From Naegleria gruberi (lineage: Eukaryota), in assembly GCA_000004985.1 (NCBI GenBank), contig GG738920.1: a DNA stretch of 64,000 bases. One strand, 5' to 3'. Each line of letters starts with the position of its first letter. The stretch's first letter is position 1. The notes under the pieces are model-generated. The model was given only the letters and a program-made list of their open reading frames with translations. It made no database searches and was not told the origin of the DNA. Positions 2,246-40,000 of this stretch are shown here, piece after piece. A program made the position numbers and the translations under genes.

Positions 2246-4560
2246 TTATTTGAGAATAACAACTCTAGAATTGGTATAGTCAGCAAGGTACAAGTCACCA
2301 GTCTTTTCATCAAAGAAGGAACCAACAACACGACCGAATTGATCCTTACCCAATGAACCATTGTAACTGGCAGTGAAAACACCAGAATCCAAATTGAAGA
2401 AAGTGATTCTATTGTTACCACCATCACAGACAACAACATTCTTAAGAGTTTCATCAATGGCAATACCACGTGGGTTGATAAATTCCATACTTCCTTGGCC
2501 TTCCTTTCCGTAGACTCTCAAAGATACAAATTCGTGATTATCCTTATCAATACCAATAATGTGCATTCTGTGACTGCCATATTCCGAGACAATGAGATTA
2601 TTATTGATGGACAAGTAGATACCTTCTGGTTGATTGAAGAGAATACCGTCCTTATCATCCTTCTTTGAACCAAAGACCTTGAGTGGTTTACCATCAGAGG
2701 CCTTCAAAACCTTAACACGATGATTTTCACCATCACAAACAAAGACAGTGTTACCACCAGTTTGAGCCAATTCTGGGAACATTTGATTGATCTTTCTAGA
2801 GGTACAAACGATAACACCAGCAGGTTCATTGAACAAGGAAATATCGCTACCCTTCTTCTTACCTGAGGTCCAGATTGGTTCAACCTTTTCCTTTTCGTGA
2901 GCTGTCAACAATTGCTTCAAATTGTACTTGTAGACACAGTGATTGTCACAAGTGTAAATCAAAGCATCATTATTACCTTCAAAGTTTGGTTCAATGGCCA
3001 AATATCTTGGATTCTTTGGTGTCTTGTGAGTAGCCTTGTATTCCTTAGTTTTGAGATCAAAGAATTGAATTCTATTGTTACGACTGTCAGAGACAATGAT
3101 AACTCCACAATTGTGTGAAACTTTAACATCCCATGGACCCTTGAACAAGTCATTATCACTACCTTCCTTACCAGTCTTTCCAATAACACCAGCATGTTCA
3201 AATCTCATAGAATATTGTTTGAATGGAGTTGAAGCTTCGGTGACAGTTGGAGTGCTAGAAGCAGATGTAACAGTGGCAGTTGAAGAGTTGGCAGGTTGTT
3301 CGGAAACTGGAGTAGTGGCAGGTGACTTTGAAACTGGAGTTGGAGCTTTAGTCTTTGGATCAGTTTTGATGATTTCACCCAATTGTGCAATTTCACGTTG
3401 AACATATTTGAGCATGGTTTCAACATTGGTGAGTTGAACATCGTGAACTTCTTCCAAAAGTAAATACTTGAAGAAGGTCTTCAAATCTTCGAAAGATTGA
3501 AGTGTTTGTGGAAGTTTACCTAATTTTCTATCCATCATTTCAAAGCCAGACATTTCAGCCAATTTATCAAATTCAGCAATGTAATCGACGGAAATCTTCT
3601 TTAAATCAATAACTCTATTGGTATAGGTAATTTGTTTTTGACAAATTTCATCAATATCGGCATTCAATTGATCTTGTCTATCTTGTAAAGATTGTCTTAA
3701 ACCATCGAAAATAACTTGAACTTCTTCCTTCAATCTAGTTCTTTCCTTTTCAATCAATGTACTTTCTTCTTCTAATTCATTATCATGGGTTTTATGTGAT
3801 TCTTCCCATTCTTTCAATGAATCTCTCAAATTTTGCAAAACCTTTTCCAAATTGGCACGTTCTTCTGGTTCAATCTTTGAAATCATGTTGACTTCTCCGT
3901 GACCTTCACGATGTTCTTCAATAGCACAAGCAGAACAAACCAATTTCTTACAACTTCCACAGAAAGTGTTGATAGGAATGTGGTGAATTAAACACAATGG
4001 GGCAGGACCTCCAAAAGTACCTGTTGTGTTAATTGTTGAGGCAACCATTGGACTGGCAGTTGTTGATGAGCTGATACTTTGACGTGGAGTTGGTGGCAAA
4101 TGTCCTTCATGATTGTGCAAGTGTTGTCCCAATAGAATACCACTTCCTGAGAGTGATTGTGAGGAGGCTCCAATAAAATCGATCACTTGATGGGAAGGTT
4201 CTTTCTTTCTGTGGATAGCAGCATCACGAGCACACAAGAAAAGATTACAGTCTGTGTGTAAAATAGATGAAATTTTAACACATCACACAATGATTGACAT
4301 TTCGACCCATCATCATTGACGTTCAACAATAGCCATTGAAAATCAGCAAAAAATAGAAAATATCGTTAAAATCTTGTACAAATAAATTACTACGTACCAA
4401 TACATTGACTTTTTGCTTCTTGGAAAACATCAACTTCTTCCTTACAGACAAAGCAACATGGTGGAGCTACTTGTTGAGCAGAAAGTGAAGAAATAGACGA
4501 GCTTGAATCAGAGTGGGAAAGTGTGGAAATAGCAACTGGTGGAATGGTGGTTTCACTCAT
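2246..4560 (-). CDS. RING-less TRIM-like protein: B-box1 + B-box2 + coiled coil + about 6 NHL repeats (Brat/TRIM-NHL-like), 2 exons
   Basis: Exon 1 is about 4398..4560, with ATG (MSETTIPP...) at 4558-4560. It carries CCFVCKEEVDVFQEAKSQCI, then a GTACGT...CACAG intron at about 4252..4397 (146 nt, phase 1). Exon 2 is 2246..4251 and continues DCNLFLCARDAAIHRKKEPSH, which completes a B-box1 CxxC..CxxC..C..H..H pattern. A second B-box (CGSCKKLVCSACAIEEHREGHGEV) follows, then a heptad-rich coiled coil, then NHL blades (GKEGQGSMEFINPRGIAID..., NHRVKVL, NNRIQFFD). No C3HC4 RING is found upstream. Confidence 0.65.
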
Positions 4561-5221
4561 TTTTTTAAAGTGGTTTTTTAACGGTTGATGTGTGGCATGT
4601 GAAGAGACATTAAGTCTGACGGGGTTCAGAGAATCATCTTCCGCAATCAGAGTGAATGGTTCGATGTAGCTGACCTTGTGGGAAGGTGAATCGTACGCTT
4701 GATGACAAGTGTAAATTTTTGGTATGATGTTTGACGCTTTCAAAATGATTAGGTAAGGGGACAGTCCTTAATATTCTTTTGACCGTTTTTTTTCTAACAA
4801 TGCAACTACAGTTACCTCTTTGGAATTGATTCAGCATATTAGCATCGCCCAACAAAAGCAATTAGGACTTCATATAAAGAAATATTTTGGTGGCTACATT
4901 GTTTTGAAAAATTATATCAAGATAACTATCTTTCATGATCTTTCCGAGGTGTTGATTTACATGTACTTTGCTAATATATAATATTTAATTATGAATTTTA
5001 ATGATAAATATTTAAATATTATTAATGGTGAAGCCTTTGTTGCTTTATATTGGCCTTAAAAAAAATTCTCAAAACCCAAGAAGTGATTTCCCGCTATTTT
5101 TTTTTACGAACTGTACATGACTTGAGTTTGATAATGTAACCCAGCATAGATTGTTTATCGATGAATGTTTCATTGTTGAAGCAACTATTACAAACTTTAC
5201 AAAGTGAATGAACACAAAAAA

Positions 5222-21580: not shown

Positions 21581-22870
21581 ATGAAAACAACACTCATCCA
21601 CAACTGCAACACTCAACCTTCCCTTGAGGAACTGATTGAATTCTCTCCGGTTGCCTGTCTTGATTGTAGAACCAACCATAGAAAATGTGACAGGAAGAAA
21701 CCAACATGTGCTGCATGTCAAATAAGAGGCTTCGATTGCACATACTCAAAAACTATGAAAAGAAAGCTCAAGAAACAAATCATCCACAACCAACTGGAAC
21801 AAGATTATAACATGATTGATTTTTATTTTAATTTGGCAAGTTATGGTCTTCCGATGGTTGGACGAGATGAGCTGAAAAGTTTTTTGACGTTGCTAGTTGA
21901 AAATGGTGGTGAAATTCCTAATAATGAGGATAAACAAGTACTAGAAATGGCTGCTCTTTTCTATTCAATTAAAGCCATTTGTGAATGCTTCACTGGAACA
22001 ATGGAAGATGCAGAGAAGGCAGCCACCAAATCAAAAAACTATCTGTCTCATGTATTTGATAGACATTGGAGTGTACTGGTTGTTGCCTGCTATTATTACT
22101 TGTGTTGGTTTGATTTTATGGTTGGAAAAGTGGAATCATCCCAATTCTATAGACAAATCTTAAAGTTTGCAAAGGAAAAGTTTGAGAAATCAACAAGACA
22201 ATTGAGTAATTTTGAGAGGAATGCCTACGAATGTATTTGTCATGTGGACGAATTCATGTTCAACGAAGAGGGAGAAGTCAGAGTGATGAATTTCGAATTA
22301 TTCATCCAATCTATTCCAAGAATGTACATTTTCGACAAGAGTAGTCTTCCTAATGGATGGAATTACTATATGAAAAATCCACACCTTATCGATTCCACAA
22401 ATTGTTTCGAAGTTTGGACCATGTTGGAGATGATTTTACATGAATCAAGGGAGAATGATCTCGAATTGATTCCAAACTTTGCTGAACTTATTAACTTGTT
22501 TTACAATATAACAGAGAATGGCACACGATTGGGCATACTATCAAAGGCCTCTAATGCATCTAGCTCACTATTGATAGAGCATGCAATGGAGAAGAGTGCA
22601 TCAGAAATAGCTTTCGCAACAACAAGTATCCACTTTAAAACCCTTCCAATAGAAATCATGATACATGTTTCAATTGCTACCAATTACCATCTCGAGAAGG
22701 TGAAGAGTGGTGTTCTCTTTCCTAAGAGAGGAGGGATAAGCTACTTGGATCTGCTATCTAAGGAGCTTCAGGCCTACAATTATTTTAAGCAAAAATTTTT
22801 GATTACTTCTCGTCATTTCTCAACCCTATTTTCACAAGTTGAACAGGTGGCAGGATTATTGAATGTTTAG
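21581..22870 (+). CDS. Zn2Cys6 (GAL4-type) transcription factor, single exon, 429 aa (Z2)
   Basis: Real ATG at 21581. ACLDCRTNHRKCDRKKPTCAACQIRGFDC gives C-x2-C-x6-C-x6-C-x2-C-x6-C. A basic stretch (KRKLKKQ) follows the cluster. The region after the zinc finger resembles the corresponding part of Z1 (IDFYFNLASYGLP... vs VDVYFSILCGTHP...). Confidence 0.65.
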   Translation: MKTTLIHNCNTQPSLEELIEFSPVACLDCRTNHRKCDRKKPTCAACQIRGFDCTYSKTMKRKLKKQIIHNQLEQDYNMIDFYFNLASYGLPMVGRDELKSFLTLLVENGGEIPNNEDKQVLEMAALFYSIKAICECFTGTMEDAEKAATKSKNYLSHVFDRHWSVLVVACYYYLCWFDFMVGKVESSQFYRQILKFAKEKFEKSTRQLSNFERNAYECICHVDEFMFNEEGEVRVMNFELFIQSIPRMYIFDKSSLPNGWNYYMKNPHLIDSTNCFEVWTMLEMILHESRENDLELIPNFAELINLFYNITENGTRLGILSKASNASSSLLIEHAMEKSASEIAFATTSIHFKTLPIEIMIHVSIATNYHLEKVKSGVLFPKRGGISYLDLLSKELQAYNYFKQKFLITSRHFSTLFSQVEQVAGLLNV

Positions 22871-23608: not shown

Positions 23609-26600
23609 ATGAAAATTCCTTCAGGAATAATTCTCCTCCTTCTACTCGGTTTTGCAGCAGCATGGTTGTTAGCAGAACATAAAGTAGAGTGCACTATCGA
23701 TCACAAAATAGTGGCAGGTGGTCTAGTCGATCCAATCACTGGTATCGATGCATCTGGTTTCAAATTCAAAAATCCTGCTTCTGCATGTGTAAATCCTAAA
23801 ACTGGTGATGTATTCTTGACTGATGCTGATACCATCAACAAACCAAGTTTAGGTTTTAATAGAATATTCAGGGTAAATAGACAAACTAACATCATTACTA
23901 CCTATGCTGGTAATGGTTACTCTTCTGTAACAAGGTAAGTTAATGAATGAGCATCATGTGATGCATACATGCATGAATGTTAATTTAACATGCTTAATCA
24001 TAATCAACACATCCAAACGTGAATTTATATAGTGGAGATGGTGAATTAGCAATTGATGCTGGCATGACTCCATCAGTTTGCACTGTGGACATGGCTGGTG
24101 ATTTGTATTTTTATGATATATCCAGTTCTGCCATTAGGGTTGTCAATGGAACAACTGGAAAGATTTCCACCTTTGCATCCGTTTCTAAACCATTTTCTCT
24201 TGCAAGTGATGATAATTTCATTTACTACTCTGCAACTTTTTCTGTTGGTAAATTCAATAAGGTTACTAAGGTTAAGACTGTTTATGATAGCAGTGTTGGT
24301 ACATCATATGTTGTGTTGGGTCTGGATGGATCATTATATTACAGTGCAACCAGTGAGAAGACCATTAAGAAGGTTGACAAACAAGGTGCAATTTCGATCA
24401 TTGCTGGTCAAACCAGTGTTGGTTGTGGAAACGGCAATAAGGATGTGTGCGGTGATGGTGGATTGGCTTCCAGTGCTCTATTTTATGTAAGTATTCACAG
24501 AGGACTAGATCCATATTTAACAACATGTATTTCCTTATTAACAATTAACAGCAACCAAGTAGTCTTCATGTACAAGAAAATGGAAACCTCGTCATTGCAG
24601 ACCAATACAGAGTAAGAATGATTTCTCCAAATGGAACCGTGTCAACTCTTGCTGGTACTGGCACTTTCAATTCTTACTTTGGTGGTGCAAACGGTGATGG
24701 CAGCTCGGCAATCACTGCTGTTCTTAAAGATGTTGGTGTTATATTTGGATACAACAATACTGTTTATATTCAAGACGCGTAAGTATTCATATTCAACTTG
24801 GTTCGTCTAATCATTTCAATAGAAGAAATCTTAGATACAGAAAGGTTGAGAATAGCATTATCAATCATGCATTTGGAACTTGTGACAAGGGAGTTGCTTT
24901 TGGAGAAGGTAACAGATTGATTAATACCAATTTGAATAGTGGTTTAGCTTCTCTTGCATTCGACTCTCAAGATAACATGTATTTGGCTTGGCAAAATATT
25001 GTTTACAAGGTCTACAATGGAATTGTTAAAAGAATTGCTGGAACTGAAATTGGTGATTATGGTACTAATGGTAATGCATTGAATGCATTACTTTCTGTTG
25101 GAAAGATTATTGTGAATTCCAACAATGATGTTATTTTCCCAGCAGTAAGTTGATACTTAATTCAATTTAACCAATTTTTGATATAGGTCAACAAAGTTAA
25201 AAAGATTGAAACCTCAACTGGTTTAGTCAGAGAATTCAATATTACTGGTCTCAATAGTCCTAAAGCAATTTGCTTGGATGCAAATGACAATTTGATCATT
25301 ATGGACACCAGTAACTGTGTCATCAAATATTTCGATGTAACAACTCAACAAGTTTCGCAACTTTCCAAGACAAATGCTGGATGCGATCCTGGAGCAAGTG
25401 GTTTTTGTAAGTTTGCACATTTTCATTGTTGATTTAATCTATATAATAGTTGTCAATTCAACATTATTTAGCTCACCTTCTGATTGTGCCGTTGATAAGA
25501 AGAATGGGGATATTTACATTTCTGAGAATAACAAGATTAGAGTTATTAGAAAATCAGATAGTAAGGTGTATACCATTGCAGGTAATGGAAACTATTGTTT
25601 GAAAACAACTTACAATACGAACAAATGTGGAGATGGAGGCTTGGCAACAAGTGCTGCTATTTCAAGTAATGGTTTGGCCCTCAATTCTGCAACTTCTGAA
25701 TTGTTCTTTTCTGGTAAGTATTTAAAATATTCTATTTCGACTAATTTCAAGATAGATCTTGCTTGGGATGGTGCTAATAATAATTATTATTCAACTATTA
25801 GAAAGGTAAATTTAACATCTGGTGTCATTTCAACTGTGGCAGGAACAGGTTCTTCACCACCAAAAACTGGTACTTACATTTATGGAGAATGGTCAGATCC
25901 ATTGGCTACTCCAATTTTAGTTTCCACAGTTTCTGTTTCAAATGGTGGAAAACTCTATTTCCCAGACGGTTCCGATCAAGGGTATATCAGAACTATTAAC
26001 TCCAATAATAGAATAGTTTCAATTACAGGTCACTATTATTCGGATTCCATTTATTACAATGGTGAAAACTTGACAGCTACCGAAAGTTATCTATGTAACC
26101 CAACAAGTATTGCCAAACATAAGAATGGCGACTTGTTCTTTGGTTTGACATGTAAAACAATTGTTCAGCAAGGTGCAGTTTGGACAACTTTTTCCAGAAT
26201 TGTAAAGTTGGATTCGAATACTGGAAGAATTAATACTATAATTGGTAATTTTAAGGAAACAACTTCTCCAGATGGATTGAGTGGATTACAAACAAGTATT
26301 AGTCCATATAGAGATGCTTCTAGCTATTTCCCATTGGGAGTTGTTGTTACTGATGCAGGTGAAGTAATTTACTCAGATTCTCAATCAAATATTATTAGAA
26401 AAGTAAGTTTCTTATAAGAATTTGTGAAATTAAGCAAATATTTAGTTGAATTTAAATGGAGTGATTGAAACTATTGTTGGAACCAATACCAGTTGTCCAA
26501 ATTCCACATACACTTGTGGAGACAATGGTGATGCCAAATTAGCAAGTAAGTTTCTTCCTAAATCTTTCCAATATTAAAAACTAATCATTCCTCACGTATT

Positions 26601-29600
26601 GGAAATATATAGATTTGAAACAACCAACTGGTCTCTTCTTGACAGAAAGTGGTGTTTTATATATTGCTGACTCTGGTAATCATAGAATTAGAAAAGTTGA
26701 AAATGGAACAATCTCAACAGTGATTGGTTCTGGATATTCTTGTTCATCTGCTGGAGCTGCTTCTTGTGATAGCACTGATCCTCTTTTGGTCAAGTTGTTG
26801 GTAAGTTATTCGACACTAGTTCGTATGATAATTTTGGTTAATAGACTCCTGCTGCTGTTTATATCACTAAATCAGGAGATGTCTATGTTGCTGATACAGG
26901 AGTAAGTTATTTGATTGATATATTTCAAAGTAATCCTATCAAATTAACTATTTAGAATAACAAAGTAAGAAAGTTGAGTAATGGAATTTTGAGCACTGTT
27001 GTTGGCACCTCGTTGGATCTTCCAACTGGTTTATTCGTCGATGAGAGCAACAATGATGTTTACATTTCTGATCGTGTAAGTTTTTCAATCTTCCTTTCAA
27101 AAATGTTTACATTTTCAATAATCTTTCAAATTATTTTAATAGACTCGTACTGTTAGAAAAGTTTCTAAAGGATTTTTATCAATCTATGCTGGTACGCTTA
27201 ACAATGCAGTATATTCAATCTCTGGAAATGTTTCTTTCTGCTATCCAACTTCAATTCTTCAAACTAATGATGGAATTCTTGTTGCTGACACTGAAAGTGG
27301 CTTGATCAGATCTGTCAAACTTTCCTGTCCAACTGGATACTATGGATTGAACTGTGAATATTACAACTGTTTTGGAATTAGCAGCTTAAACTCAAATACC
27401 TGCAATGGATTTGGTAATTGTTCAGCACCTGACGTTTGTAGTTGTGACAGCAGTCATGAAGGAAGTCAATGTGAAATTGGAAAGTGTTTTGGAATTTCAA
27501 AAAATAACTCAATGGTTTGCACTGGACATGGGTTATGTCTTTCACTTGATACTTGTTCGTGTAATGGTGATTATTACGGTGAAAAATGTAATTTACCTTA
27601 TTGTTTCTCAATCAGATCAAACGAAACTTCTGTTTGTTCTGGACAAGGCAACTGTGTTGAAAAGGATCAATGCTCATGTAGAAATAATTATTTGGGAGCA
27701 ATGTGTGAAAATGCACCATGTTTTGGAGTTTCTTACAACGCATCTAATGTTTGTTCTGGAAATGGAGAATGTGTTTCTCTCAATAACTGTACTTGCGATG
27801 AAGGTTATTATGGAGATTTATGTAATTTACCAATTTGTTTCTCTATCAAATCCAATGACTCATCAGTTTGTTCTGGACAAGGTGATTGTATTGGAAAGGA
27901 TCAATGCTCATGTAGAAATAACTATTTAGGAGCAATGTGTGAAAATGCACCATGTTTTGGAATTGTTTACAATGCAACAAATGTTTGCAGTGGACATGGA
28001 TTGTGTGTTTCAGGAAGTTGTCAATGTTCAGATAATTATTTTGGATCTAACTGTAGTGTCACCACTTGTTTTGGAACGGCCAGTAATGACAGCTCAGTAT
28101 GTAGTGGTAATGGTATTTGTTCTTCTTTTGATGAATGCAAATGCTCAACTGGATACACTGGAGTTAATTGCAATGTTTCAACTTGTTATGGATTACCTGC
28201 CACTAATGCAAGTGTATGTAGCGGACATGGATTGTGTACTTCTCCGAACCAATGTTCTTGTAATCAAGGTTGGAATGGAACTTATTGTAATGTTACTTCC
28301 TGTTTTGGTATTGTTTCTACAAGTGTTTCCAATGTTTGTAATGGACATGGTTCATGTATAGCTCCAAATGAATGTTCATGCAAACAAGGATATCTTGGTT
28401 CTTCATGTAATGTTACTTTCTGTTATGGAGTTTCTTCCAATGAGTCCAATGTTTGTTCTGGTCACGGAACTTGTGGAGATTTAAATTCTTGTTCCTGCTC
28501 TTCCGATTGGTACGGATCCAAGTGTAACATTACCACTTGTTTCGGTATTAAGGGAGACCAAAATACTGTCTGCAGTGGCCATGGCTCATGTCCATCAACC
28601 AATCAATGTAACTGTCAAGAGAATTATTATGGCACATCATGTTCTGTTCGTTGTGACTCTAATACCTGCAATGGACATGGTAACTGCTCATCAACAGGTC
28701 AGTGTCAATGTTTCTCAGATGTAGAACATGGTTTCTGGACCTCTTCTAATTGTTCGAAATGTGATTCGAATAGGTATGGTGAAAATTGTTGGGTCACTAT
28801 TGGAAATAGTTCAATGGTTACTCCAGATGGAATTGGTCTTTTATTGCAACTTGTTAATCCTAATGCAAATATTAAGAATTTGCAAGTCGATTGTAATATT
28901 TTACTTTCTTCTGAGACTATTAGAAAGTTGGATTCACCAATTTGTAGATGGACTAATTTATCAACAAGTGAATTGACCATTCAAATGGGTCTTGAAAATA
29001 GTATTCAATTAGGAGATTCTTTATATGTCAATACTAATTATTTCAACACAGCCAACTTGAAACCTTCTTACATTCCAATAACTGTCATGAAAAATTCGAA
29101 TCCAACTGTTTTACCAGAAGCTGTCATTTCCACAACTTCCAAATCTTTCAGTAATTGTGATTCAATTGTTATTCAAGGATCTGAAAGTAGAGACAAGAAT
29201 TATAGAGATTTGACTTTCGAATGGCGTTTCGTCAACTCTCCTCTTTCTCCTTCTGCCTTATCTCTCATTACGCTAACCAAACCAACACTTATTTTGGCAG
29301 ATAGTCAACCATCTGGAAATTATATTGTTGAACTCGTTGTCATTTCCAAATTTGGAGCAAGAAGTTTGCCAGTTTCTTATTCATTCAAGAAACTTTCTGC
29401 CAGTATGCCACAAATCAATGCTGAAAGCAATAGTATGGATGTATTTGTCGATAGACTTCCAATAATTGTCAAGAAATATGTTTCGTACAAGTCATGCTTG
29501 GGAGAAATTTTAAAGTCGAATGAATATACAGTGAATTGGACTCAAACCAGTGGACCAACCAATGCCAAATTCGAAACTTTACCTAACGGAGACTTGGCAA

Positions 29601-31942
29601 TTTATTCATTCCAATCTCAATTGTCCAATACTTTCACATTTGTTGCAACTTTGAATTATTCAATGGAAATTGCAAGCACAAAGGTAACAATCAATACTCA
29701 TGAACCTAATTTTGCAGTTTTGGTTTATCAAACTGATTTGAATTCAACTCATGTGACTGTCAATGTTGAAAGTGATCCAGTTGAAAGTTTGGCTCAATAC
29801 AAGGATAATATTCAGTTTACTTGGAATTGTAAGAATGTGGACGAAACTAATTGTGATTCTTCCATTTTGAATACTCTTGCTTATCACGGCAATGTTAAAT
29901 CGACCAAATTCATGTTGGCTCGTAAATCTTCATTGTCAATTCGTCTCGGATTGGATGTTACCTTATCAGGAAATAATCACAGCAATGAAATGGTTGTCAC
30001 TTTCCCTAAGGACGAAACTGTTCCAGTTGTTGAATTGGTTTCAGTTTCTCCAGCTGGTTCTCAACTCACCACTGAAGACATTTTAACCATTCAATTATTA
30101 GTTCGTGTCAGTGGTCAAATTGAAAATATCGATTCTTTAATTACAAGAAATTGGAATCTCAATGGTCAACCAATTAGTAACGATTTGGTTTTATCCCCAT
30201 CTCCATCTAAATCCAATTACATTTCTCTAGATTTATCCAAACTCAGTGCTGGTTCATCAAACACTTTGCTATTCAACGTTTCAAGTGTTTCGTCTAAGTT
30301 ATTCTCAACATTTACCTATTCCTTCTCACTTGCTCCAAATCCATTGCCATGTTCATGTTCTGTTAGTCCATCAACTGGTTTCGCTCTTGAAACTCTTTTC
30401 ACAATCAGTTGTCCTAATTGTTTGACTTCCAACACTGCTCTTCAAGTTTTATTCACAGATGTCAAGACTGGAGTCAGAGTTCCACTCATGGATGCAACTG
30501 TGTCTGAGTTGACCACTCAATTACCATATACAGGTGATGAACAACTTCCATTACATTTTGTTGTTAGAAATACCAAGACAGGAGCCAAGACTGAAACCTC
30601 AGTTTTACAATCGGCTAAAGTTCCATCCGCTATCTCATTGTCAGAAGTCAAGACAAAGAAGATGGCTTGGAATGCTTTTTATAGATCTCTCTATGCTAAT
30701 GATCCAAGAAAGGTTGTTTTCAATTATATTTCAACTGTTGTCAAAGAAATGACTAGAAGAAACTCTGTCACCAGAAGAAACTTGAAGGTAACAAACTGTT
30801 TAAATGGTGGAGTGTATAATTCATTCACCAAGATGTGTGCTTGTAAGAGTGGATTCAAGAAGATTGACTGTAGCATGACTCTTTCTGATTGGAATGCAAT
30901 TGTTTTGGATAATTACGAAACTGCCAAATCAGTCATTGAAGAATTGAATTCCAGAAATAGTTTAGAAGCCCCACAAGAATCCAAGATTGCCAGCCAAATT
31001 TCATCTCTCTATCACTTGCTGGAAACTGTCGACGAGAATAGTCCAGAATTGCTCGATCAAGTTCTTTCCATTTTCAACAATACCATTCAAGATGCCACCA
31101 AATTCTCTTACATTACAATTTCGAATTCATTGGCAAGTACAATGTCTGAAATTTTGGGATTACTTTACAAGAGTCAACTCTATAATGCTGGTAATGTGAG
31201 TGTTGAATATTTTGCAAAGATTAGAGAATTGCTCAACTCGGTTGCATCTATCAAGTACAGAAATCAATTGATTGGAAGTTCTATTGATTTTGATGCTGAT
31301 ATGTTCAAGTTGACTGGAACTAAACTCTATCCTATGGATTTATCTGGAAAGAATCTTGATACAATGATTCAACTTCCAACATTAATGACCAAATATTTGA
31401 AGAATGGAGACATGAGAAAGTCAATTAGTCCAAGAATTTTCAAGAATTCAATTATTCAATCCAAACAAACTTCTGAAATTATCAATAATCAAACAGTTGT
31501 AACATACGAAACCACTCCAGGTTACTCTCTTTCCTTAGAATTCATTAATCAAAATGTTGACATTCAAGAAAAAGTTGTTAATTATTACTTTAACCTTACT
31601 AAGACAAATATTTCTGCATACAGCAATATTAAGAACTTGGTCTCTGAAGTTGTTTGTGAAAGTGATCAACCATGTGAATTACAAACCTTAGAAACAAACT
31701 TTTATGCATGTAAATGTGCCCTTCCATCCCATGTAACAGTTAGAGAGAGAACTACGTTCACTATTGTGCCAATAGTTCCACAAAATTCTATTCCAACTCC
31801 TCAAAAATCAATTGTTCCAAAAGTTTCTCCAAAAGTTTCCAAGATTGCCACTGTTTCTGATGCTTTGCAATATTCTGGAATTAATGGATGTATTGTTGGT
31901 TTGTTAATTGTTTTATGGACCTCTGTTGCTGTCTTCTTTTAA
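23609..31942 (+). CDS. giant secreted/surface protein: signal peptide + about 10 NHL blades + about 11 EGF-like repeats + about 1100-aa Ser/Thr/Asn-rich glycosylated region + C-terminal hydrophobic anchor (12 exons, about 2570 aa)
   Basis: Exons, +/-3 nt: 23609..23934, 24033..24486, 24552..24778, 24823..25144, 25187..25406, 25450..25713, 25756..26402, 26446..26545, 26613..26800, 26845..26901, 26956..27075, 27143..31942. Introns are 42-98 nt, all GTAAGT...YAG, and all phases close. The signal peptide is MKIPSGIILLLLLGFAAAWLLA. NHL blades include CGDGGLASSA..., ADSGNHRIRKVENGTISTV and DNNVRKLSNGILSTVVG. EGF-like repeats of about 32 aa follow the pattern CFG..(10)..C.G.G.C....C.C..(8)..C. The protein ends GCIVGLLIVLWTSVAVFF, a TM or GPI signal. 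Near 23879 the ORF-track frame was used where it disagreed with the printed text by 2 nt. Confidence 0.65.
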
Positions 31943-31982: not shown

Positions 31983-34900
31983 TTATTCAAAAACTTCAGC
32001 AAATTCAGTAGCACTTCTTCCAAATATTTCAGGAGTGTACATTTCTTCTGCCTTCACACCTGGGATAACAAATGAACCGATTGAGGTAGCTCTAGCAATG
32101 TAGGTAAATTCGTGAGTGCCTTCCCATAACAATGAGCTAAATGCCTCAACTCTCTCATCTCTAATGTTGTGGTGTTCATACCAAATTGGATTAAACCACC
32201 AACACCACCAACCGTTTGATCTACTATTGGTTCCACTTCCACTTACAGTAGCAATATCTGGAGTTCCTTTCAATTCTGGATTGATTGGTTCAAGACCAGC
32301 AGGTAAAAAGTCAACTAATGCAACGTGATATCTACGACTGGTATTGGTCATGGTCAACTTGATACGAACCAATTCTCCAGCCTTAAATCTCCAAGTGTTT
32401 CTTTCTCTATCAAATGTAACATGAGAAGAATCAGTCACGTGTTCATAAGTTCTTTGAACTTCAAATCCATAATCCAATGCATCAACAAGCAAGTTCTTTG
32501 GAGCATATTCCATTCCAATTCTGTAATATAATCTTCCAGGTCCATGCTTGGAAATAGCAAGTGTCTTTTGACCATTCTCTAATAAACTCATTGGAATGCT
32601 CAATTGGTTTTCATCCTTGGATCTTCCCTTGAAAACTTGCTCTCCACAATAATCTTCACCTAGCCACATGTTGGCAACAAAATCTGGTGTCACACCTTCG
32701 AATACGTTAAAGTATGTATTAAGGGAAAGAAGGATGAAAACATTTTCTTGAGTATTTTCCCATCTACCTTTCTTTCTATGAGCCAGTAAGCCCTTGACAA
32801 TCTTTGGAATAATATAATTTTGAGGAGTAATATTAATAAGAGCTTCTAAGCAAATACCATCAGTTCTACGATTGCTGTGCAACATGACATGTTTAGTGGC
32901 CATTGCATCACCATAGCTTGTGATAAAGTTTGCTGTTTGAGCAGTTTCATTCACATGCTTATTCAAATGTTCAATGATTTGATTAACAGAAGTAGTGGCT
33001 CTCTTATTATTTGATAAATATATGGCAGTAGCCAACCAAGCTAAATGTTCAAAATTACCTGAAAGTTTGTAAGTTTGATAAAGTTTTTCAGCTAAATTCT
33101 TTGCCTCAGAATCATCTAACAATGCCAAAGCATAGTAGGCATATGCCTTGAGTGATTTGATAGTCTCCTCAGAGTAGTTCTCACAATAACTTTCAATACT
33201 TCTCAATACTGGAACCAATTTTGAGAGAGTGGATTCATTCACTGAATATCCTGCAAGCCTGGCTCTAGCAAGGGAATGACCGACGTGGCATGTAACGTAT
33301 GGACTGATACGATGATCCACTCCATTAAATGACCAGTAGCTGAATCCACCATTTGGATATTGTCTTGTTGATAATTGTCTGAGTCCTTGATTAATATTTT
33401 CATCAAGGTTTTCCTTTGTTGGAAGCTCTTGTAATTTGAAAGCAAGAAGAATATCTTTAAGAGCTAAAATTGATAATAATCTACTAGAAATTTGTTCAGA
33501 GCATGCGAAAGGATAATTGTACAAATAAAGGAAACTGTCAGTGAGTGAAGACAATGCAGTAGAGCTGGTTGAAATCTTGAGACCTCCAAATTGTGTGAAA
33601 ACATCTTGAGGAGCCTTTACAGGTTGGAACACTGAGCTATCACCATCCATTTCACCATAAGTTGCAAATGCTTCAGTTGTGGCTGGAGTAAATACTCTGA
33701 TTTCTTTTTCAACAGCATCAGAGAAGTTTACACCAGAAGTGGCGATAGAGACACCAACTTGGAATCTGGCCACACCCACCCTATCAGTAGTCATGGGGAA
33801 TCTCAATTCAGCCCTTCCTAAAGCTGGTATTCTAATCTTGAGTCCTTTCTTTGAGGTATCCAACAAGTTCAAATTGGTAAAGTTAATAGCAGCATGTACC
33901 TCCAAACTTAATTGGGTTTGATTTTGTAAAACACATGTAAATTCTGCTCTATCGCCAAAGTTCAAGAAACGAGGTAGGGATGGTCTGATTGACAATGGAA
34001 GTTGAGCAATCATAGATGATTCATGAATTCCAAAATTCCAATCTCCCTTAACAGCCACAGCTGTGATTCTGTACTTGGTAAGATTATCAGGAAGTTTAAA
34101 TTTAACAGAGGCCACTCCTTCAGAGTTTGTCTTGTTGGTTGGGCTAAAGATGGCAAGAGGATTGAAATTAGATCTCACTACAATCTTTGGTTGTTTGGAT
34201 AGTTTAGCTCCTCCTCCACCAAATCCACCTACACAACCATCACCACAACATGCACATTGGCAACAAAGGTCGTCACAACAACAGCATTCATTCATACAAT
34301 CTTCAAAACAACAATTAGCGCAAGAACTGCATGCTCTAGCAAAGCGACAACAGTTAGTAGGACTTCGCATTAACGGTAGTTCCTCTTGGAAAACAATACC
34401 ATCATAGCTCTTAACAAAAACATTATTTCTGATGGAATAAGTTTGATAATAGCTGCTGTATTCTCTAACAAATGTATCTAGAGGATTAGCAATGGTGTGG
34501 CCAGTTAATGACAATACAGCTTCATCCACAGCAATGATACAAACTTCACATCCTTCTAAAGGTTTACCAGTTATTGGATCCTTAACAATGACATCAATGC
34601 TAGTTTCGCTTCCAGGTGTCAAATATTCCCTTTCAGGCTTGGATTCAACAGATAAGGTTCTGGAAATCTTTGAAACCTTAATCATACATTCACCACTTGC
34701 AAAAGCAGGTTGTTTTGGTAAATCCTCAAGAACATTACCTATAGCATCAACCCTTGATTCGCAACCAGTAACTTCAGCACTGACGAAAATATTTGGAATA
34801 TGGTCAGAAGTAATGTCAAGTTCAAATTCAATATAGCCAGGCTCACCATCAATTTGAATAGGATGTTGGCTATGTATTCCATGAAGTCTTGTGAATAAAA

Positions 34901-37900
34901 CACCTTCACACCTTGTTTCAAAAGGAGATTGAATTAAAATCTTAGCCTTTTCTCCAATTTGATATTCAGTCTTGTCTGGAAGTAGAGTGAGTTGTTTCTT
35001 TGTAATATTCTTTCCAAGTTTTTGCTCCCTCACAGAAGCACCTGTAATGTACAAGCTTGTTGAAGAGTTATTAGTTTGGCCTGTTTCAGAATCAACAATA
35101 TCAACAGAGAAATAATAGATACCACCATTTCCAAACTTTAAAGGAACGTCAACAGCTTCCTTTCCTGAAGTGAAAACTTCATCAACAATTTCAATAGTTT
35201 CCGAAACAAATTTGTATCCCTTCTTTACCTGTACATTGGTGGTTACTTTCAATTTCATTGGAATACCAGAAACCAATTTTCCATCAATGTCAGAAACAAT
35301 TAGAGAAGCAGTTATTGGAATGTTTGGTTTGGCGAATTGTTTGCTCAACTTGATTCCACAATAATATTTACAAGGGTGAACAAGGAAGGAAGTAGATGAA
35401 GAAATGGTTTGTCTATTGATATCTTGTACAGTTGCCTCCACTGAGATGGTAACTGGTGTCTTTACCAAACGATCACTTTCATCAAAGGCAATAGCAACTT
35501 GATGCTCACCATTAACATCTGTAGTACCTTCAAAGCTTGTAACATCAAGAGCTGATCCACTTGGGAATAAATAATTTGCTACAGAGGAACCTCCAAAATT
35601 GTATGAGGATTGGTTTGGAGGAACATAACTACTACTGGTTTGTTTGATAGAATAAGAGCATTTAGCTCCTGAGATTCCTCCTCCACTATAGTAAGTAGCA
35701 TTAGTGGTACAAAGAGCAGAACCACCAACAATGTAGTTTCCAGCAGGTACTGAAGATTTAGATTTGAACTCTGGTGTTCTAAATTCTTGAACTTGGAATT
35801 GATGGAAGGCAGAGAACCCATCTAATGAGATGGAGTGACTTCCCAAGTTGGCATTATCAGGAACTTTGAATTGAATATCAAAAGTACCATCTTCACTCAG
35901 AGTTACATTACCAGAATGATACTTTTGACCTCTCGCATCCAAGACTGTGAAAGTAGAACTAGTTTTTGGTATTTCAATCTTTTCAACATTGTCAATCAAA
36001 TTGAAGTTTCTTACATAACCCTTGATGGAAACTGTTTCATTAGGCTTGTAAAGTCCTCTATCGTTGAACATGCAAGCAACAGTTTGTGGTTGATATGGAT
36101 TGTAATAGTGATAAATATCTGGAATGAAGCATGTATCTTGACCTTGAGTGGCAATAGCCTTCACATATGCTCCATATTGTTGTTCATGACCAATATTACG
36201 TATACAACCAATACCAGTTGATGAGTTAGGTGTATTTGGGGAATGATTGTTGAATTTGAAGGTTACATTATCCTTAATAATACTTCCATCCAACAATGAG
36301 TTAACCCAATAGTATACACTTGATGAACTTGTGTCAAAAACACAATCAACAGAAATTTTGGTTGCTTGAATCCAAGATGTGAAACCAGGTCTTTGATTCC
36401 ACTCACCCTTCCAGCTACTTTTTTCTGGCTCAACAATAACAAGCAATTGACCAATATTTTCAGATGGATACTGAAGATAGGAATGAAGATTGATTTCAGT
36501 CTCCACTGGTTCGTCAATTTCTCCCTTTGTTGAAATGACACTATCACAAACCAATTTACCAGGATATTGAATAGTTGAATAGGTGTTATGATGAAGAATA
36601 GATGAAGAATACATATTTGGTTGGACTTGATAAACACTCAAATGTACAGAATCCAAATTTACAGTAACAATTGGGTAGGTTGGAGTTGGATTCAAAGTTG
36701 GATCTAAAACAATCACACCAGTCTTGAATGCTTGGAGTGATTGACGTGCACTTTTAACAGTAAATTCTACAGTGGTGTCTGGAAGGATTTGACCCCAAAC
36801 ATCAACCAAATTCTTCAAGAAAACCTTATAAGTAGTTCTTCCTTTGATTTTACCAGAAACACTGATAGTGCATCCGTATGGATTTAATTCCATTCTTTCT
36901 ACTGGTGGTGAAACAGTTACCATACTTTCTGTTAATTTTTCCAAATCAATATTTGTTGTAAAATTCAATCCAAAAGCCTGCATTGGTAGCTCACCACCGT
37001 GTTTTCTTTCAAACTTGAAAGCTGGATAATTCTTGACTTGATTGCTTACATCCTTTTGTGTTGGTAATGGACCTTCTGACCCAGTAACTCCACTCTTGAC
37101 AACTACTTGAGAGGAGAGACCAAGTTTGTGACTAGTGGTAAACCACAAATGTCTTCCATCTGGAGCATGTTTGAGTTTTTGTTCGTAAAACGAATGAATG
37201 CTCCTATCTCTCTTCTCCAATTCATAATCTTTCAAAACTTTAACAATGTGCTCCTCAACGAGAGGATTCGAAGACTTTCCATCATGAATCAAATTGGCAC
37301 TTTGATTATCGATAGTAATAAATTTGATCACTTCACTTGGATTAATTTCTTGATCAAACTCACAATAGTAAATTGGTACTTCGTTGAGAGGATGAGCTTG
37401 TTGGTTTGGGAAAAATTGCTTTACATATAATCTTGGAGTTTCAAAACTAAATGTCAAATCTTCCTTCAAAGTTCCTCCAATTTCTGATTTGGTACCCTTC
37501 TTGACAGTAACTGTATACTTGGTAGACATGTCAAATCTGTAATTAGCTTCATAAATTAAAGTTTTTGTTCCCAACCACTTGAATTTTCCTCCCTTCTTTG
37601 GGAGTGGTGAAATTTCTACTGGAATATTATGACTTTCTACTTCTGCAACACCACTCACAGGAACCATTGGTTGAGAGAAGGTAATAGTCACAGATGGAAC
37701 TGATCTATCCAAAACACCTTCTGGTGAATAACGAAGCACACTCAAATCAGATCCTAACAACTTTGCCTCCTCTTCAATCAATTCCTTTGGTTTTTCCAAA
37801 CTTATTTCAGGTGGAAATGGAACACTATTAATCTCGGCAGTAATTGGTGCCTTCAATGATTTTTCTCTAATGAGAACAATAATTAGATAGAATTTTCCGA

Positions 37901-37913: not shown

Positions 37914-37924
37914 GATGTTAATCG

Positions 37925-38218
37925 TCACACAAAATTTAAAAACACAAACCTCATGAAGAAATCCTTTTGATCACCACCTTCTGATTTTACATTCGGAAGT
38001 CTACTCAGTAATCTCTGAGTTTCCTCCTCTGACAAACCCTCAATGGTTGCCGATAAATTGCTACTTGATTCATTGCTACAACTCTTTCCTTCCATCATGA
38101 TCAATGATCGGGTTGTATCCTCTGCAGTAGGCTCTCTAACACTCAACTTTAATGCACCACCCAATGATGCACTTTCAAGTTCATTGTCAAGCAATTGCTC
38201 GAGATCATATCTAACCAT
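37925..38218 (-). CDS. small acidic Ser-rich ORF (97 aa); either a separate gene or a 5' exon of the A2M/TEP gene
   Basis: Real ATG at 38216-38218. The ORF stops 1 nt before the tool start of the A2M ORF. ...DQKDFFM|R is followed by GTTTGT, and a TAG acceptor at about 37846 (cattag|AGAAAAATCATTGAAGGCACCA) would join it in frame to ...EKSLKAPITAEIN of the A2M ORF, giving an intron of about 85 nt. Confidence 0.25.
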   Translation of the reverse strand: MVRYDLEQLLDNELESASLGGALKLSVREPTAEDTTRSLIMMEGKSCSNESSSNLSATIEGLSEEETQRLLSRLPNVKSEGGDQKDFFMRFVFLNFV

Positions 38219-39861: not shown

Positions 39862-40000
39862 TTTTTTAATAATAAAATTAATAGTTTCTGTTAAATATAT
39901 AATCAAATTAGAATATGCACCGTTGTAATATATTGTTCTGCCAAATTCCACCAATGTTAAATAATTAATGAGTCAATTTCGATGGAATTGTTCTTAATTA

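What the first reader, a model, noticed from the sequence alone, without database searches (positions are those of the whole stretch)
2246..4560. RING-less B-box1/B-box2/coiled-coil/NHL protein (Brat/TRIM-NHL-like) in a protist-like genome
The B-box-CC-NHL combination is best known from metazoan TRIM-NHL translational repressors. Here B-box1 is split by a 146-nt intron and there is no RING. This is either an ancestral-type TRIM-NHL relative or convergent domain shuffling, and it is useful for lineage placement of this genome. It also gives a second NHL-propeller gene in the window, alongside the giant surface protein.
Basis: partly seen in the sequence, partly recalled or inferred. Interest (0 to 1): 0.5.

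Follow-up and report, generated by a model that had tools for sequence, protein, structure and literature searches.

The report
RING-less TRIM-NHL-like gene in Naegleria
This is a real, already catalogued but unstudied gene of the amoeba Naegleria gruberi whose protein has the zinc-finger, coiled-coil and propeller layout of animal TRIM-NHL regulators but lacks their ubiquitin-ligase RING domain, so this layout is not confined to animals.

Summary
A two-exon gene lies on the minus strand at 2246..4560, with a 146-nt GT..AG intron at 4252..4397. It encodes a 722-aa protein laid out as B-box1-like finger, B-box2, about 170 aa of coiled coil, a disordered Ser/Thr/Pro linker and a six-bladed NHL propeller. 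No RING exists anywhere in the window.

The window is Naegleria gruberi NEG-M. The exact spliced protein is already public as NAEGRDRAFT_59795 / XP_002670002 / D2W0Y0, named only "predicted protein".

- **Domains:** B-box2 and NHL pass Pfam cut-offs. B-box1 does not, but a family profile matches metazoan B-box1 type-specifically (hhalign 95%, far above shuffles).
- **Closest relatives:** the B-box2/coiled-coil profile hits only TRIM proteins in the PDB, TRIM3 best. In the PDB the propeller is closest to TRIM71, TRIM32 and TRIM2/3. Bacterial multi-NHL proteins are equally similar, so the NHL evidence is not exclusive.
- **Family:** Naegleria carries at least four or five RING-less paralogues.
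- **Likely role:** a non-catalytic, dimeric TRIM-like adaptor. Its ligand, RNA or protein, is unknown.

Ancient origin, gene transfer and independent fusion remain unresolved. This is a new member of a known kind and moderately interesting.

The parts
2246..4560 (-). Whole gene NAEGRDRAFT_59795, from ATG to TAA: two exons encoding a 722-aa protein
   Evidence: The spliced protein is identical to XP_002670002 / D2W0Y0.
4398..4560 (-). Exon 1: residues 1-54 plus the first base of codon 55. It holds a disordered Ser-rich N-terminus and the first half of the B-box1-like finger.
   Evidence: The AlphaFold2 pLDDT is below 50 for residues 1-31.
4252..4397 (-). Spliceosomal intron: 146 nt, GTACGT...ACACAG, phase 1. 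It splits the C53-x2-C56 pair of the first finger.
   Evidence: The intron is absent from the intronless orthologues L001 6001-8121 and L002 499-2565. The same splice is used in the public model.
4190..4455 (-). B-box1-like zinc finger, residues 36-75 (the span includes the intron). Pattern: C-x2-C-x13-C-x2-C-x4-C-x2-D-x3-H-x6-H.
   Evidence: The pattern was found. Pfam zf-B_box_Trim66 is sub-threshold at 18.7 bits against a cut-off of 27. hhalign against metazoan B-box1 gives 95.4% and score 38.9, while shuffles reach at most 23.4. The match is type-specific. AlphaFold2 pLDDT is 76-90. All ligands are invariant in the orthologues.
4004..4174 (-). Disordered low-complexity linker between the two fingers, residues 81-137
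   Evidence: pLDDT is below 50 for residues 82-136. The length varies among homologues.
3899..3994 (-). B-box2 zinc finger, residues 141-172. Pattern: C-x2-H-x7-C-x2-C-x4-C-x2-C-x4-H-x3-H.
   Evidence: Pfam zf-B_box scores 29.3 bits against a cut-off of 24.1. The pattern was found. hhalign against metazoan B-box2 gives 98%.
3368..3889 (-). Coiled-coil region, residues 176-349: a long helix H1 (178-280) followed by shorter helices that include the family-specific motif EFDxLxEMSGxE
   Evidence: AlphaFold2 helices are at 178-207, 211-280, 290-314 and 331-349. The family profile aligns with the TRIM3 B-box/coiled-coil structure 8amr at 8.7e-12, and every PDB hit is a TRIM protein.
3203..3367 (-). 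Disordered, basic Ser/Thr/Pro-rich linker, residues 350-404. It occupies the position of the filamin domain in TRIM2/3/71.
   Evidence: pLDDT is below 50 for residues 345-403. The S+T+P fraction is 0.55 and the pI is 9.7.
2249..3202 (-). Six-bladed NHL beta-propeller, residues 405-722
   Evidence: Pfam NHL scores 74.8 bits. AlphaFold2 pLDDT is about 90. Foldseek top 23 PDB hits were 22 chains of TRIM-NHL propellers plus one designed Pizza6S propeller, with target TM-scores of 0.81-0.86 for the single-domain NHL structures among the top hits and about 0.61 for the two-domain zebrafish Lin41 filamin-NHL entries. phmmer against TRIM71 gives 7.6e-21. The family profile against TRIM71 gives 1.1e-69.

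Best explanation
The locus is the Naegleria gruberi gene NAEGRDRAFT_59795. It encodes a RING-less TRIM-like protein with the layout B-box1, B-box2, coiled coil, disordered linker, NHL propeller. It is one member of a Naegleria family of such proteins.

**Proposed mechanism.**
- The B-box2 plus long coiled coil forms an elongated antiparallel homodimer. This is inferred from homology to TRIM3, TRIM5, TRIM28 and TRIM72 B-box/coiled-coil structures.
- The dimer presents two NHL propellers on flexible Ser/Thr/Pro linkers.
- The propellers bind the ligand on their top face. This step is inferred.
- Because there is no RING, the protein has no intrinsic E3 ligase activity (shown by absence). It acts as a non-catalytic adaptor or regulator.

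**Ligand.** By analogy with the RING-less Brat/NCL-1 proteins and with TRIM71, the ligand I favour is mRNA, giving post-transcriptional repression. This is the weakest step, at about 0.3, and a protein ligand is about as likely.

**Origin.** The B-box1/B-box2/coiled-coil module shares ancestry with the metazoan TRIM module. The fusion to NHL is more likely shared with TRIM-NHL proteins than independent.
For: **Gene and splice:**

**Domains:** Pfam NHL and zf-B_box are above their cut-offs.

**Zinc fingers:** both match their metazoan counterparts type for type in hhalign.
- Finger 1 against B-box1 scores 38.9. Against B-box2 it scores 13.8.
- Finger 2 against B-box2 scores 55.1. Against B-box1 it scores 30.6.

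**B-box2 plus coiled coil:** all 24 PDB hits of the family profile are TRIM proteins.
- The best is the TRIM-NHL member TRIM3, at 8.7e-12 over 133 positions.
- TRIM-NHL-type proteins with filamin score 47-55 bits, against 39 bits or less for TRIM5, TRIM28 and TRIM72.

**Model:** the AlphaFold2 model shows about 100 residues of helix H1, plus return helices and a confident propeller.

**Propeller:**
- Foldseek top 23 PDB hits were 22 chains of TRIM-NHL propellers plus one designed Pizza6S propeller.
- The family NHL profile gives TRIM71 1e-69, Thin/TRIM32 3e-61 and TRIM2/3 1e-39.
- The same profile gives PknD 7e-20, NHLRC2 1e-18 and PAL 9e-16.

**No RING:** none in the window or in any of the 10 family members scanned.

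**Purifying selection:** all zinc ligands and many propeller positions are invariant across orthologues that are 55-59% identical.
Against: - **B-box1:** it does not reach any curated Pfam cut-off. Neither the orthologue-level nor the family-level profile finds a solved B-box1 at a significant E-value.
- **NHL similarity is not exclusive.** By BLAST the Naegleria propellers hit giant multi-NHL proteins as well as, or better than, metazoan TRIM-NHL proteins (74-157 bits against 57-139 bits). Those giants carry bacterial domains (Dockerin, Big_7, Big_9). The NHL could therefore have been joined independently.
- **RNA binding:** the TRIM71 RNA-pocket arginines R608 and R796 align with G426 and N647 (alignment). 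The propeller is near neutral, with pI 7.7. Nothing here points positively to RNA binding.
- **Untested:** dimerisation, ligand and expression.
Confidence: 0.6

Rival explanations
1. Independent (convergent) fusion. A TRIM-type B-box/coiled-coil module that was already present in the Naegleria lineage was joined to an NHL propeller of other origin, for example bacterial. On this view the protein resembles TRIM-NHL proteins in layout but does not descend from a common B-box/coiled-coil/NHL ancestor.
For: - NHL-level similarity to bacterial-type multi-NHL proteins equals or exceeds that to metazoan TRIM-NHL proteins.
- Naegleria has other NHL genes, including NHL-only relatives of this family (P0109 = NAEGRDRAFT_81824) and a teneurin-NHL gene in the same window.
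- Published surveys place TRIM subfamily C in animals only and TRIM37 in eukaryotes generally (PMC3503706).
Against: - Both halves independently rank class VII TRIM proteins first among solved structures. TRIM3 is best for the B-box/coiled-coil part. TRIM71, TRIM32 and TRIM2/3 are best for the NHL part.
- The order and spacing of the modules are the same as in Brat and TRIM71.
- A differentiated B-box1 plus B-box2 pair is present. To my knowledge TRIM37 lacks B-box1; this was not tested here.
Confidence: 0.25
2. Horizontal transfer. The family entered the Naegleria/heterolobosean lineage from an animal or other holozoan, possibly through a giant virus, rather than being inherited from an early eukaryotic ancestor.
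For: - All named family members are Naegleria species. No other named non-metazoan lineage was found.
- The top viral structural match is a Sylvanvirus (giant virus) protein aligned over 451 columns at E 1.3e-18.
- A RING-less B-box/coiled-coil/NHL protein (P0170) sits on a metagenomic contig of short ORFs with no Pfam hits.
- Sardiello et al. raised horizontal transfer as a possibility for protist B-boxes (PMC2533329).
Against: - Identity to metazoan proteins is only about 22-30%.
- The family has diversified into at least four or five deep paralogue groups that are 25-35% identical to one another.
- The gene has native base composition and a spliceosomal intron.
- Any transfer would therefore be ancient. 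The absence of other protist hits is weak evidence, because the searches were capped.
Confidence: 0.25
3. The architecture is the same but the ligand is different. The NHL propeller binds a protein, such as a cytoskeletal or motor component or a substrate handed to another E3 ligase, as TRIM32/Thin and TRIM2/3 do. The protein would then be a scaffold rather than an RNA regulator.
For: - The TRIM71 RNA-pocket residues are not conserved.
- The propeller is near neutral.
- Thin/TRIM32 is the top structural match and the second-best sequence match.
- NHL RNA-binding surfaces evolve fast and cannot be transferred by homology (PMC5908797).
Against: - The best-studied RING-less relative, Brat, binds RNA directly through its NHL domain (PMC4015489, title and abstract; PMC5908797).
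- No partner is predicted here.
- An Arg in the x-P-R-G loop of blade 5 is kept in 8 of the 10 family members I compared by eye (sequences). Its role is unknown.
Confidence: 0.4
4. The locus is not a functional gene. It would be a pseudogene or a chance ORF with generic Cys/His spacing.
For: There are no expression data in hand, and B-box1 is below the Pfam cut-offs.
Against: - The 2169-nt CDS is intact after splicing.
- Full-length orthologues in N. fowleri, N. lovaniensis and metagenomes are 55-59% identical, with every zinc ligand invariant.
- Two Pfam families are above their cut-offs.
- The propeller is modelled confidently.
Confidence: 0.02

Closest known systems
Brat (Drosophila) / NCL-1 (C. 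elegans): RING-less TRIM-NHL proteins
   Same: The domain content and order are identical: B-box1, B-box2, coiled coil, NHL propeller, with no RING and no filamin domain. This implies a non-catalytic mode of action.
   Different: By sequence this is not the closest relative. The single-sequence E-value against the Brat NHL domain is 0.32, against 7.6e-21 for TRIM71. The family profile gives 2e-28 against 1e-69. Brat lost its RING within animals. Here the whole family lacks one. Brat's RNA-binding surface cannot be assumed.
TRIM71/LIN-41, TRIM32/Thin and TRIM2/TRIM3 (class VII TRIM, subfamily C of Marin 2012)
   Same: These are the best sequence and structure matches for the propeller and for the B-box2/coiled-coil part (TRIM3). 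TRIM71 also has a B-box1 plus B-box2 pair.
   Different: They have an N-terminal RING and are E3 ligases. TRIM2/3/71 have a filamin domain where this protein has a disordered Ser/Thr/Pro linker. The TRIM71 RNA-pocket arginines are not conserved. Published range is animals only (PMC3503706), whereas this gene is in a heterolobosean.
Naegleria paralogues and orthologues: N. fowleri FDP41_008087, FDP41_007119 and FDP41_005424; N. lovaniensis C9374_007802 and C9374_004479; N. gruberi NAEGRDRAFT_62828 and XP_002678374
   Same: They share the same RING-less B1-B2-CC-NHL layout and the motif EFDxLxEMSGxE after the long helix. FDP41_008087 and C9374_007802 are full-length orthologues at 55-59% identity.
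   Different: The paralogues have His instead of Asp at zinc ligand 6 of finger 1. Some have long insertions inside finger 1. FDP41_007119 and P0194 have an extra, apparently beta-rich insert between the coiled coil and the NHL domain. The N. fowleri orthologue has no intron.
Bacterial multi-propeller NHL surface proteins (for example P0082, P0123, P0140)
   Same: Their NHL repeats are as similar to the Naegleria propeller as those of metazoan TRIM-NHL proteins.
   Different: They have no B-box or coiled coil. They are giant secreted or surface proteins with Dockerin, Big_7 or Big_9 domains.

Membership tests
TRIM / RBCC (tripartite motif) family | N-terminal RING finger (C3HC4) providing E3 ligase activity | tested here: not met
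   No RING Pfam hit was found at E up to 10. No stop-free C3HC4 pattern exists in any frame of the 64-kb window. ATG 4560 is the first in-frame ATG. None of the 10 family members has a RING. The protein is therefore TRIM-like, not a canonical TRIM.
TRIM / RBCC (tripartite motif) family | B-box type 2 zinc finger | tested here: met
   Pfam zf-B_box at residues 139-173 scores 29.3 bits against a cut-off of 24.1. The consensus ligand spacing is present. hhalign against metazoan B-box2 gives 98% and score 55.1.
TRIM / RBCC (tripartite motif) family | B-box type 1 zinc finger upstream of B-box2 (present in only some TRIM proteins) | tested here: met
   This is met at the profile level only. The 8-ligand B-box1 spacing is present with Asp (His in the paralogues) at ligand 6. 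hhalign against metazoan B-box1 gives 95.4% and score 38.9, while 150 shuffles reach at most 23.4 and the score against B-box2 is 13.8. Caveats: the Pfam match is below its cut-off (18.7 against 27), and no solved B-box1 was hit at a significant E-value.
TRIM / RBCC (tripartite motif) family | Long coiled coil directly after B-box2 that mediates antiparallel dimerisation | tested here: met
   The helical region is present and homologous. AlphaFold2 helices span 178-349. The family profile aligns through 133 positions of the TRIM3 B-box/coiled-coil structure at 8.7e-12, and also with TRIM5, TRIM28 and TRIM72. Dimerisation itself cannot be tested with these tools.
TRIM-NHL (class VII; subfamily C of Marin 2012) | C-terminal six-bladed NHL beta-propeller | tested here: met
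   Pfam NHL scores 74.8 bits in 5 stretches. The AlphaFold2 propeller has pLDDT of about 90. Foldseek target TM-scores are 0.81-0.86 for Thin, TRIM71 and TRIM2/3.
TRIM-NHL (class VII; subfamily C of Marin 2012) | Filamin/Ig domain between coiled coil and NHL (TRIM2/3/71 only; absent from TRIM32 and Brat) | tested here: not met
   In the window protein, residues 345-403 are a disordered Ser/Thr/Pro linker. For the inserts in the paralogues P0050 and P0194 the test is inconclusive. hhalign against filamin gives 25%. There is no Pfam hit. The AlphaFold2 model is beta-rich but has pLDDT of only 36-60.
TRIM-NHL (class VII; subfamily C of Marin 2012) | Phylogenetic grouping of both the B-box/coiled-coil part and the NHL part with metazoan subfamily C | not tested
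   No tree was built, because reference sequences and ML software were not available. Proxies in favour: class VII members rank first for both halves among solved structures. Proxy against: bacterial NHL proteins are equally similar to the NHL half.
TRIM-NHL (class VII; subfamily C of Marin 2012) | RNA binding through the top surface of the NHL domain | not testable with these tools
   Only indirect evidence exists. The TRIM71 residues R608 and R796 align with G426 and N647. The propeller has pI 7.7. RNA-binding surfaces are known to diverge quickly (PMC5908797).
Brat / NCL-1 subgroup | Orthology to Brat, that is, the NHL domain being closest to Brat/NCL-1 | tested here: not met
   The Brat NHL domain gives E 0.32, against 7.6e-21 for TRIM71, with the single sequence. 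The family profile gives 2e-28 against 1e-69. The layout is shared, but this is not a Brat orthologue.

The most novel reading that the evidence does not exclude
The complete B-box1/B-box2/coiled-coil/NHL module predates animals. On this reading the Naegleria family is a vertically inherited, RING-less relic of an early eukaryotic TRIM-NHL-like protein that most other lineages lost. The differentiation of B-box1 and B-box2, their union with a coiled coil, and the link to NHL would then not be metazoan inventions as published (PMC2533329, PMC3503706). Naegleria would offer a unicellular system for finding the ancestral, ligase-independent job of this module.
Probability: 0.3. Interest if true: 0.6.

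Novelty: new member of a known kind. Interest (0 to 1): 0.4.

Why it matters
TRIM-NHL proteins (Brat, LIN-41/TRIM71, TRIM2/3/32) are regulators of animal development and stem-cell fate. Published surveys describe the tripartite module as metazoan-specific, and the NHL-bearing subfamily as restricted to animals (PMC2533329, PMC3503706).

A conserved, expanded family in a heterolobosean amoeba carries type-matched B-box1 and B-box2, a TRIM-type coiled coil and an NHL propeller. It shows that at least the B-box/coiled-coil core, and probably the whole layout, exists far outside animals.

If the family was inherited vertically, this changes where the origin of the family is placed. It would also provide a RING-free natural version in which to ask what the module does without ubiquitin ligase activity.

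On the practical side, D2W0Y0 and its paralogues could be given an informative name in place of "predicted protein".

Tried and rejected
1. **Parabasalid origin.** I first suspected a Trichomonas-like genome from the ACACACAG intron end. This was rejected: window ORFs are exact matches to N. gruberi proteins.
2. **Unannotated gene.** The gene appeared to be missing from the N. gruberi annotation because one search gave no 100% hit. This was rejected. The exact 722-aa protein is XP_002670002. It was hidden because its 90% cluster is represented by a 44-aa fragment.
3. **Failed protein searches.** The B-box2/coiled-coil region, searched as a family alignment and as a single sequence, returned nothing, not even the known orthologues.
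4. **B-box1 against solved structures.** There were no significant hits. TIF1-beta and PML B-box1 appeared only at E 0.2-0.6, among other zinc fingers.
5. **Filamin domain in paralogue inserts.** hhalign gave 25%, Pfam gave nothing, and the AlphaFold2 model was low-confidence. The idea is left inconclusive.
6. **NHL closest only to TRIM-NHL.** This holds within the PDB. It does not hold against the wider collection, where bacterial multi-NHL proteins score as well.
7. **NHL tree.** I abandoned a neighbour-joining tree. Blade-register ambiguity in the outgroups and the lack of Brat, TRIM2/3 and TRIM32 sequences would have made it unreliable.
8. **AFDB50 structure search.** This would have given organism names, but the library was unavailable.
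9. **Literature.** Searches for the gene identifiers, and for Naegleria together with B-box, NHL or TRIM-NHL, found nothing relevant.
Full report
**1. What is in the sequence**

The minus strand between 2246 and 4560 carries a two-exon gene.
- The start codon ATG is at 4560..4558.
- Exon 1 is 4560..4398.
- The intron is 4397..4252: 146 nt, GTACGT...ACACAG, phase 1.
- Exon 2 is 4251..2246 and ends in TAA.
- Splicing restores a 2169-nt CDS of 722 codons.
- Without splicing, exon 1 runs into a TAG two codons after the donor site.
- ATG 4560 is the first in-frame ATG. The upstream extension of the frame contains none.

**2. Source organism and annotation status**

Six single-exon ORFs of the window are exact matches to Naegleria gruberi NEG-M proteins on one 218,836-bp scaffold. 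Four of them are NAEGRDRAFT_59797, 53845, 53848 and 53853.

The exact spliced 722-aa protein is itself public as EFC37258.1 / XP_002670002.1 / UniProt D2W0Y0 / NAEGRDRAFT_59795. It is named only "predicted protein" or "uncharacterized protein". My first homology search missed it because its 90% cluster is represented by a 44-aa fragment. I had briefly, and wrongly, concluded that the gene was unannotated.

The public model uses the same splice. The N. fowleri orthologue FDP41_008087 (L001 6001-8121) and an ENA metagenome orthologue (L002 499-2565) are intronless. Both read continuously across the junction, for example ...SHCVDCNMYLCARD.... Two independent lines therefore support the intron.

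No paper in the searchable library mentions the gene, or a B-box/NHL protein in Naegleria.

**3. Domains**

- NHL scores 74.8 bits against a cut-off of 20, in five stretches.
- zf-B_box at residues 139-173 scores 29.3 bits against a cut-off of 24.1.

The first finger (residues 36-75) gets only sub-threshold matches: zf-B_box_Trim66 at 18.7 bits against 27, and FYVE_2 at E 0.011. Orthologue-level and family-level profiles of it find no solved B-box1 at a significant E-value. It is nevertheless more than generic Cys/His spacing.
- It has the full eight-ligand B-box1 pattern C-x2-C-x13-C-x2-C-x4-C-x2-D-x3-H-x6-H.
- Every ligand is invariant in the orthologues.
- Ligand 6 is His in the paralogues.
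- A seven-sequence family profile aligns with a profile of metazoan TRIM-NHL B-box1 domains at hhalign probability 95.4%, score 38.9.
- 150 column-shuffled versions gave 9.6 +/- 2.6, with a maximum of 23.4.

The match is type-specific.

| Query profile | Against metazoan B-box1 | Against metazoan B-box2 |
|---|---|---|
| Naegleria finger 1 | 38.9 | 13.8 |
| Naegleria B-box2 | 30.6 | 55.1 |

The AlphaFold2 model has mean pLDDT 74.
- Finger 1 folds at pLDDT 76-90 and B-box2 at 66-79.
- Helices lie at 178-207, 211-280, 290-314 and 331-349.
- The six-bladed propeller at 405-722 has pLDDT of about 90.
- Residues 1-31, 82-136 and 345-403 are disordered.

No RING is present.
- There is no RING Pfam hit.
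- There is no stop-free C3HC4 pattern in any frame of the 64-kb window.
- The next gene upstream, an RCC1-like gene starting near 5204, is on the other strand.

**4. Relatives**

The exhaustive HMMER search of 1.84 billion representatives and the name look-ups show a Naegleria multigene family.
- Orthologues occur in N. fowleri and N. lovaniensis, at 55-59% identity over the full length.
- Paralogues are FDP41_007119 and FDP41_005424 (N. fowleri), C9374_004479 (N. lovaniensis), and NAEGRDRAFT_62828 and XP_002678374 (N. gruberi).
- NHL-only relatives are NAEGRDRAFT_81824 and C9374_012935.
- Several unnamed metagenomic members exist: P0003, P0037, P0042 and P0172/P0194.
- All ten members scanned have a B-box2 match, above the Pfam cut-off in eight. 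P0172 and P0194 reach only 21.8 and 18.6 bits against 24.1. All have NHL hits and none has a RING.
- The family shares a conserved motif, EFDxLxEMSGxE, after the long helix.

Against solved structures, the B-box2/coiled-coil family profile hits 24 distinct sequences, and all are TRIM proteins.
- TRIM3, a TRIM-NHL protein, is best at 8.7e-12 over 133 positions that run well into the coiled coil.
- It is followed by TRIM5, TRIM28, TRIM72, MID1/2 and TRIM63.
- TRIM-NHL-type proteins with filamin domains score 47-55 bits on the same profile. The other TRIM classes score 39 bits or less.

For the propeller:
- phmmer gives TRIM71 7.6e-21, Thin/TRIM32 1.1e-18 and TRIM2 2.8e-10. It gives NHLRC2 0.005 and Brat 0.3.
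- The family profile gives TRIM71 1e-69, Thin 3e-61, TRIM2/3 1e-39, Brat 2e-28 and Mei-P26 4e-23.
- The same profile gives PknD 7e-20, NHLRC2 1e-18, PAL 9e-16 and teneurin-like 5e-9.
- Foldseek's 23 best PDB hits are 22 chains of TRIM-NHL propellers plus one designed Pizza6S propeller.

**5. A control that limits the conclusion**

Within the PDB the propeller looks specifically TRIM-NHL-like.
- Their best hits among giant multi-NHL proteins (74-157 bits) equal or exceed those among metazoan TRIM-NHL-type proteins (57-139 bits).
- Those giants carry bacterial domains such as Dockerin, Big_7, Big_9 and DUF285.

The propeller therefore belongs to the canonical NHL class that TRIM-NHL proteins share with many bacterial proteins. 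It does not by itself prove descent from a TRIM-NHL ancestor.

The case for homology with the animal family rests mainly on the B-box1/B-box2/coiled-coil part. That part is TRIM-specific, type-matched and collinear, and class VII members rank first for both halves.

I put a shared origin of the whole fusion at roughly 0.6 and an independent fusion at about 0.25. Whether the family was inherited vertically or transferred long ago is open.
- All named members are Naegleria.
- The best viral structural match is a Sylvanvirus protein.
- Identity to animal proteins is only 22-30%.
- The family has deep internal divergence.
- The gene has native composition and an intron.

**6. Likely mechanism**

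Shown here:
- two zinc fingers of B-box types 1 and 2;
- a TRIM-type helical region;
- a confident NHL propeller;
- no RING.

Inferred from the solved TRIM B-box/coiled-coil structures that the profile matches: an antiparallel coiled-coil homodimer displaying two propellers on flexible linkers.

Inferred from the absence of a RING: no intrinsic E3 activity, so a non-catalytic adaptor role like that of Brat/NCL-1.

The ligand is unknown.
- RNA is the ligand of the best-studied relatives Brat and LIN-41 (PMC4015489, PMC5908797).
- The TRIM71 pocket arginines R608 and R796 align with G426 and N647 here.
- The propeller is near neutral, with pI 7.7.
- NHL RNA-binding surfaces are known to change quickly.
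- I give RNA binding about 0.3. A protein ligand, as for TRIM32/Thin and TRIM2/3, is at least as likely.

**7. Comparison with what is known**

In layout the protein equals Brat/NCL-1 (RING-less B1-B2-CC-NHL). By sequence it is nearer to TRIM71, TRIM32 and TRIM2/3, and it is not a Brat orthologue. It fails the RING criterion of the TRIM family, so it is TRIM-like rather than a TRIM. It has no filamin domain.

The inserts of two paralogues at the filamin position could not be assigned. hhalign gave 25%, there was no Pfam hit, and the AlphaFold2 model was low-confidence and beta-rich.

Published surveys state the following.
[quoted passage not shown] Protist B-boxes are mentioned only as an unpublished observation (PMC2533329).
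- The NHL-bearing subfamily C is restricted to animals, while TRIM37 is pan-eukaryotic (PMC3503706).

The Naegleria family lies outside that published range.

**8. Verdict**

The thing itself is a public but uncharacterised gene model, and a new member of a known kind rather than a new kind. Interest is moderate at 0.4. It would surprise a TRIM evolution specialist somewhat and it gives a testable question about the pre-animal role of the module. Its origin and function remain unresolved.

Noticed in passing
window 25374..26417 (+) and 27302..31942 (+): ORF 25374..26417 hits the teneurin NHL model (TEN_NHL, 35.8 bits). The adjacent 1546-aa ORF hits teneurin-type EGF models (EGF_TEN 126.7 bits, EGF_Teneurin 138.5 bits) and REJ. 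These are probably exons of one giant teneurin-like EGF+NHL+REJ surface protein in N. gruberi. That is notable because teneurins are usually discussed as an animal/choanoflagellate feature.
   Followed up: partly
window 31983..37928 (-): A 1981-aa ORF has the full set of bacterial-type alpha-2-macroglobulin domains: Big_5, MG2, A2M_BRD, A2M and bMG10. It is a possible bacterial-origin gene in the amoeba genome.
   Followed up: no
window 4252..4397 compared with L001 6001-8121 and L002 499-2565: The 146-nt intron is present in N. gruberi but absent from the N. fowleri orthologue and from a metagenomic orthologue. This means intron gain or loss within the genus.
   Followed up: partly
window 3521..3574 (-), residues 281-298: A motif EFDxLxEMSGxExxxxKL lies just after the long coiled-coil helix. 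It is nearly invariant across all paralogue groups of the family, although the surrounding coiled coil is only 25-35% identical. It is a candidate interaction site of unknown function.
   Followed up: no
protein collection (not the window): cluster of P0195/P0196: The 722-aa N. gruberi protein sits in a 90%-identity cluster whose representative is a 44-aa fragment. The neighbouring gene NAEGRDRAFT_59794 is likewise represented by a 50-aa fragment. Full-length proteins can therefore be invisible to representative-based searches.
   Followed up: yes
BFVD A0A3G5AIV5 (Sylvanvirus sp.); L006 921-2483 (P0170): A giant-virus protein annotated as TRAF6-like is the best viral structural match, over 451 columns at E 1.3e-18. 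A RING-less B-box/coiled-coil/NHL protein (P0170) lies on a metagenomic contig packed with short ORFs that have no Pfam hits. Giant viruses may carry this architecture.
   Followed up: no
L005 100-1971 (P0161, Logan SRR26424591): Another RING-less B-box1/B-box2/coiled-coil/NHL protein of unknown organism. Its first finger has the same C-x2-H ligand as the Naegleria paralogues. Its propeller is closer to the metazoan type than to the Naegleria type.
   Followed up: partly
window 21581..22870 (+) and 38440..39954 (-): There is a fungal-type Zn2Cys6 binuclear-cluster protein (37.5 bits) and an LRR protein with a sub-threshold F-box-like match (20.4 bits against a cut-off of 24.3). Both look like ordinary neighbours and neither is linked to the finding.
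   Followed up: no
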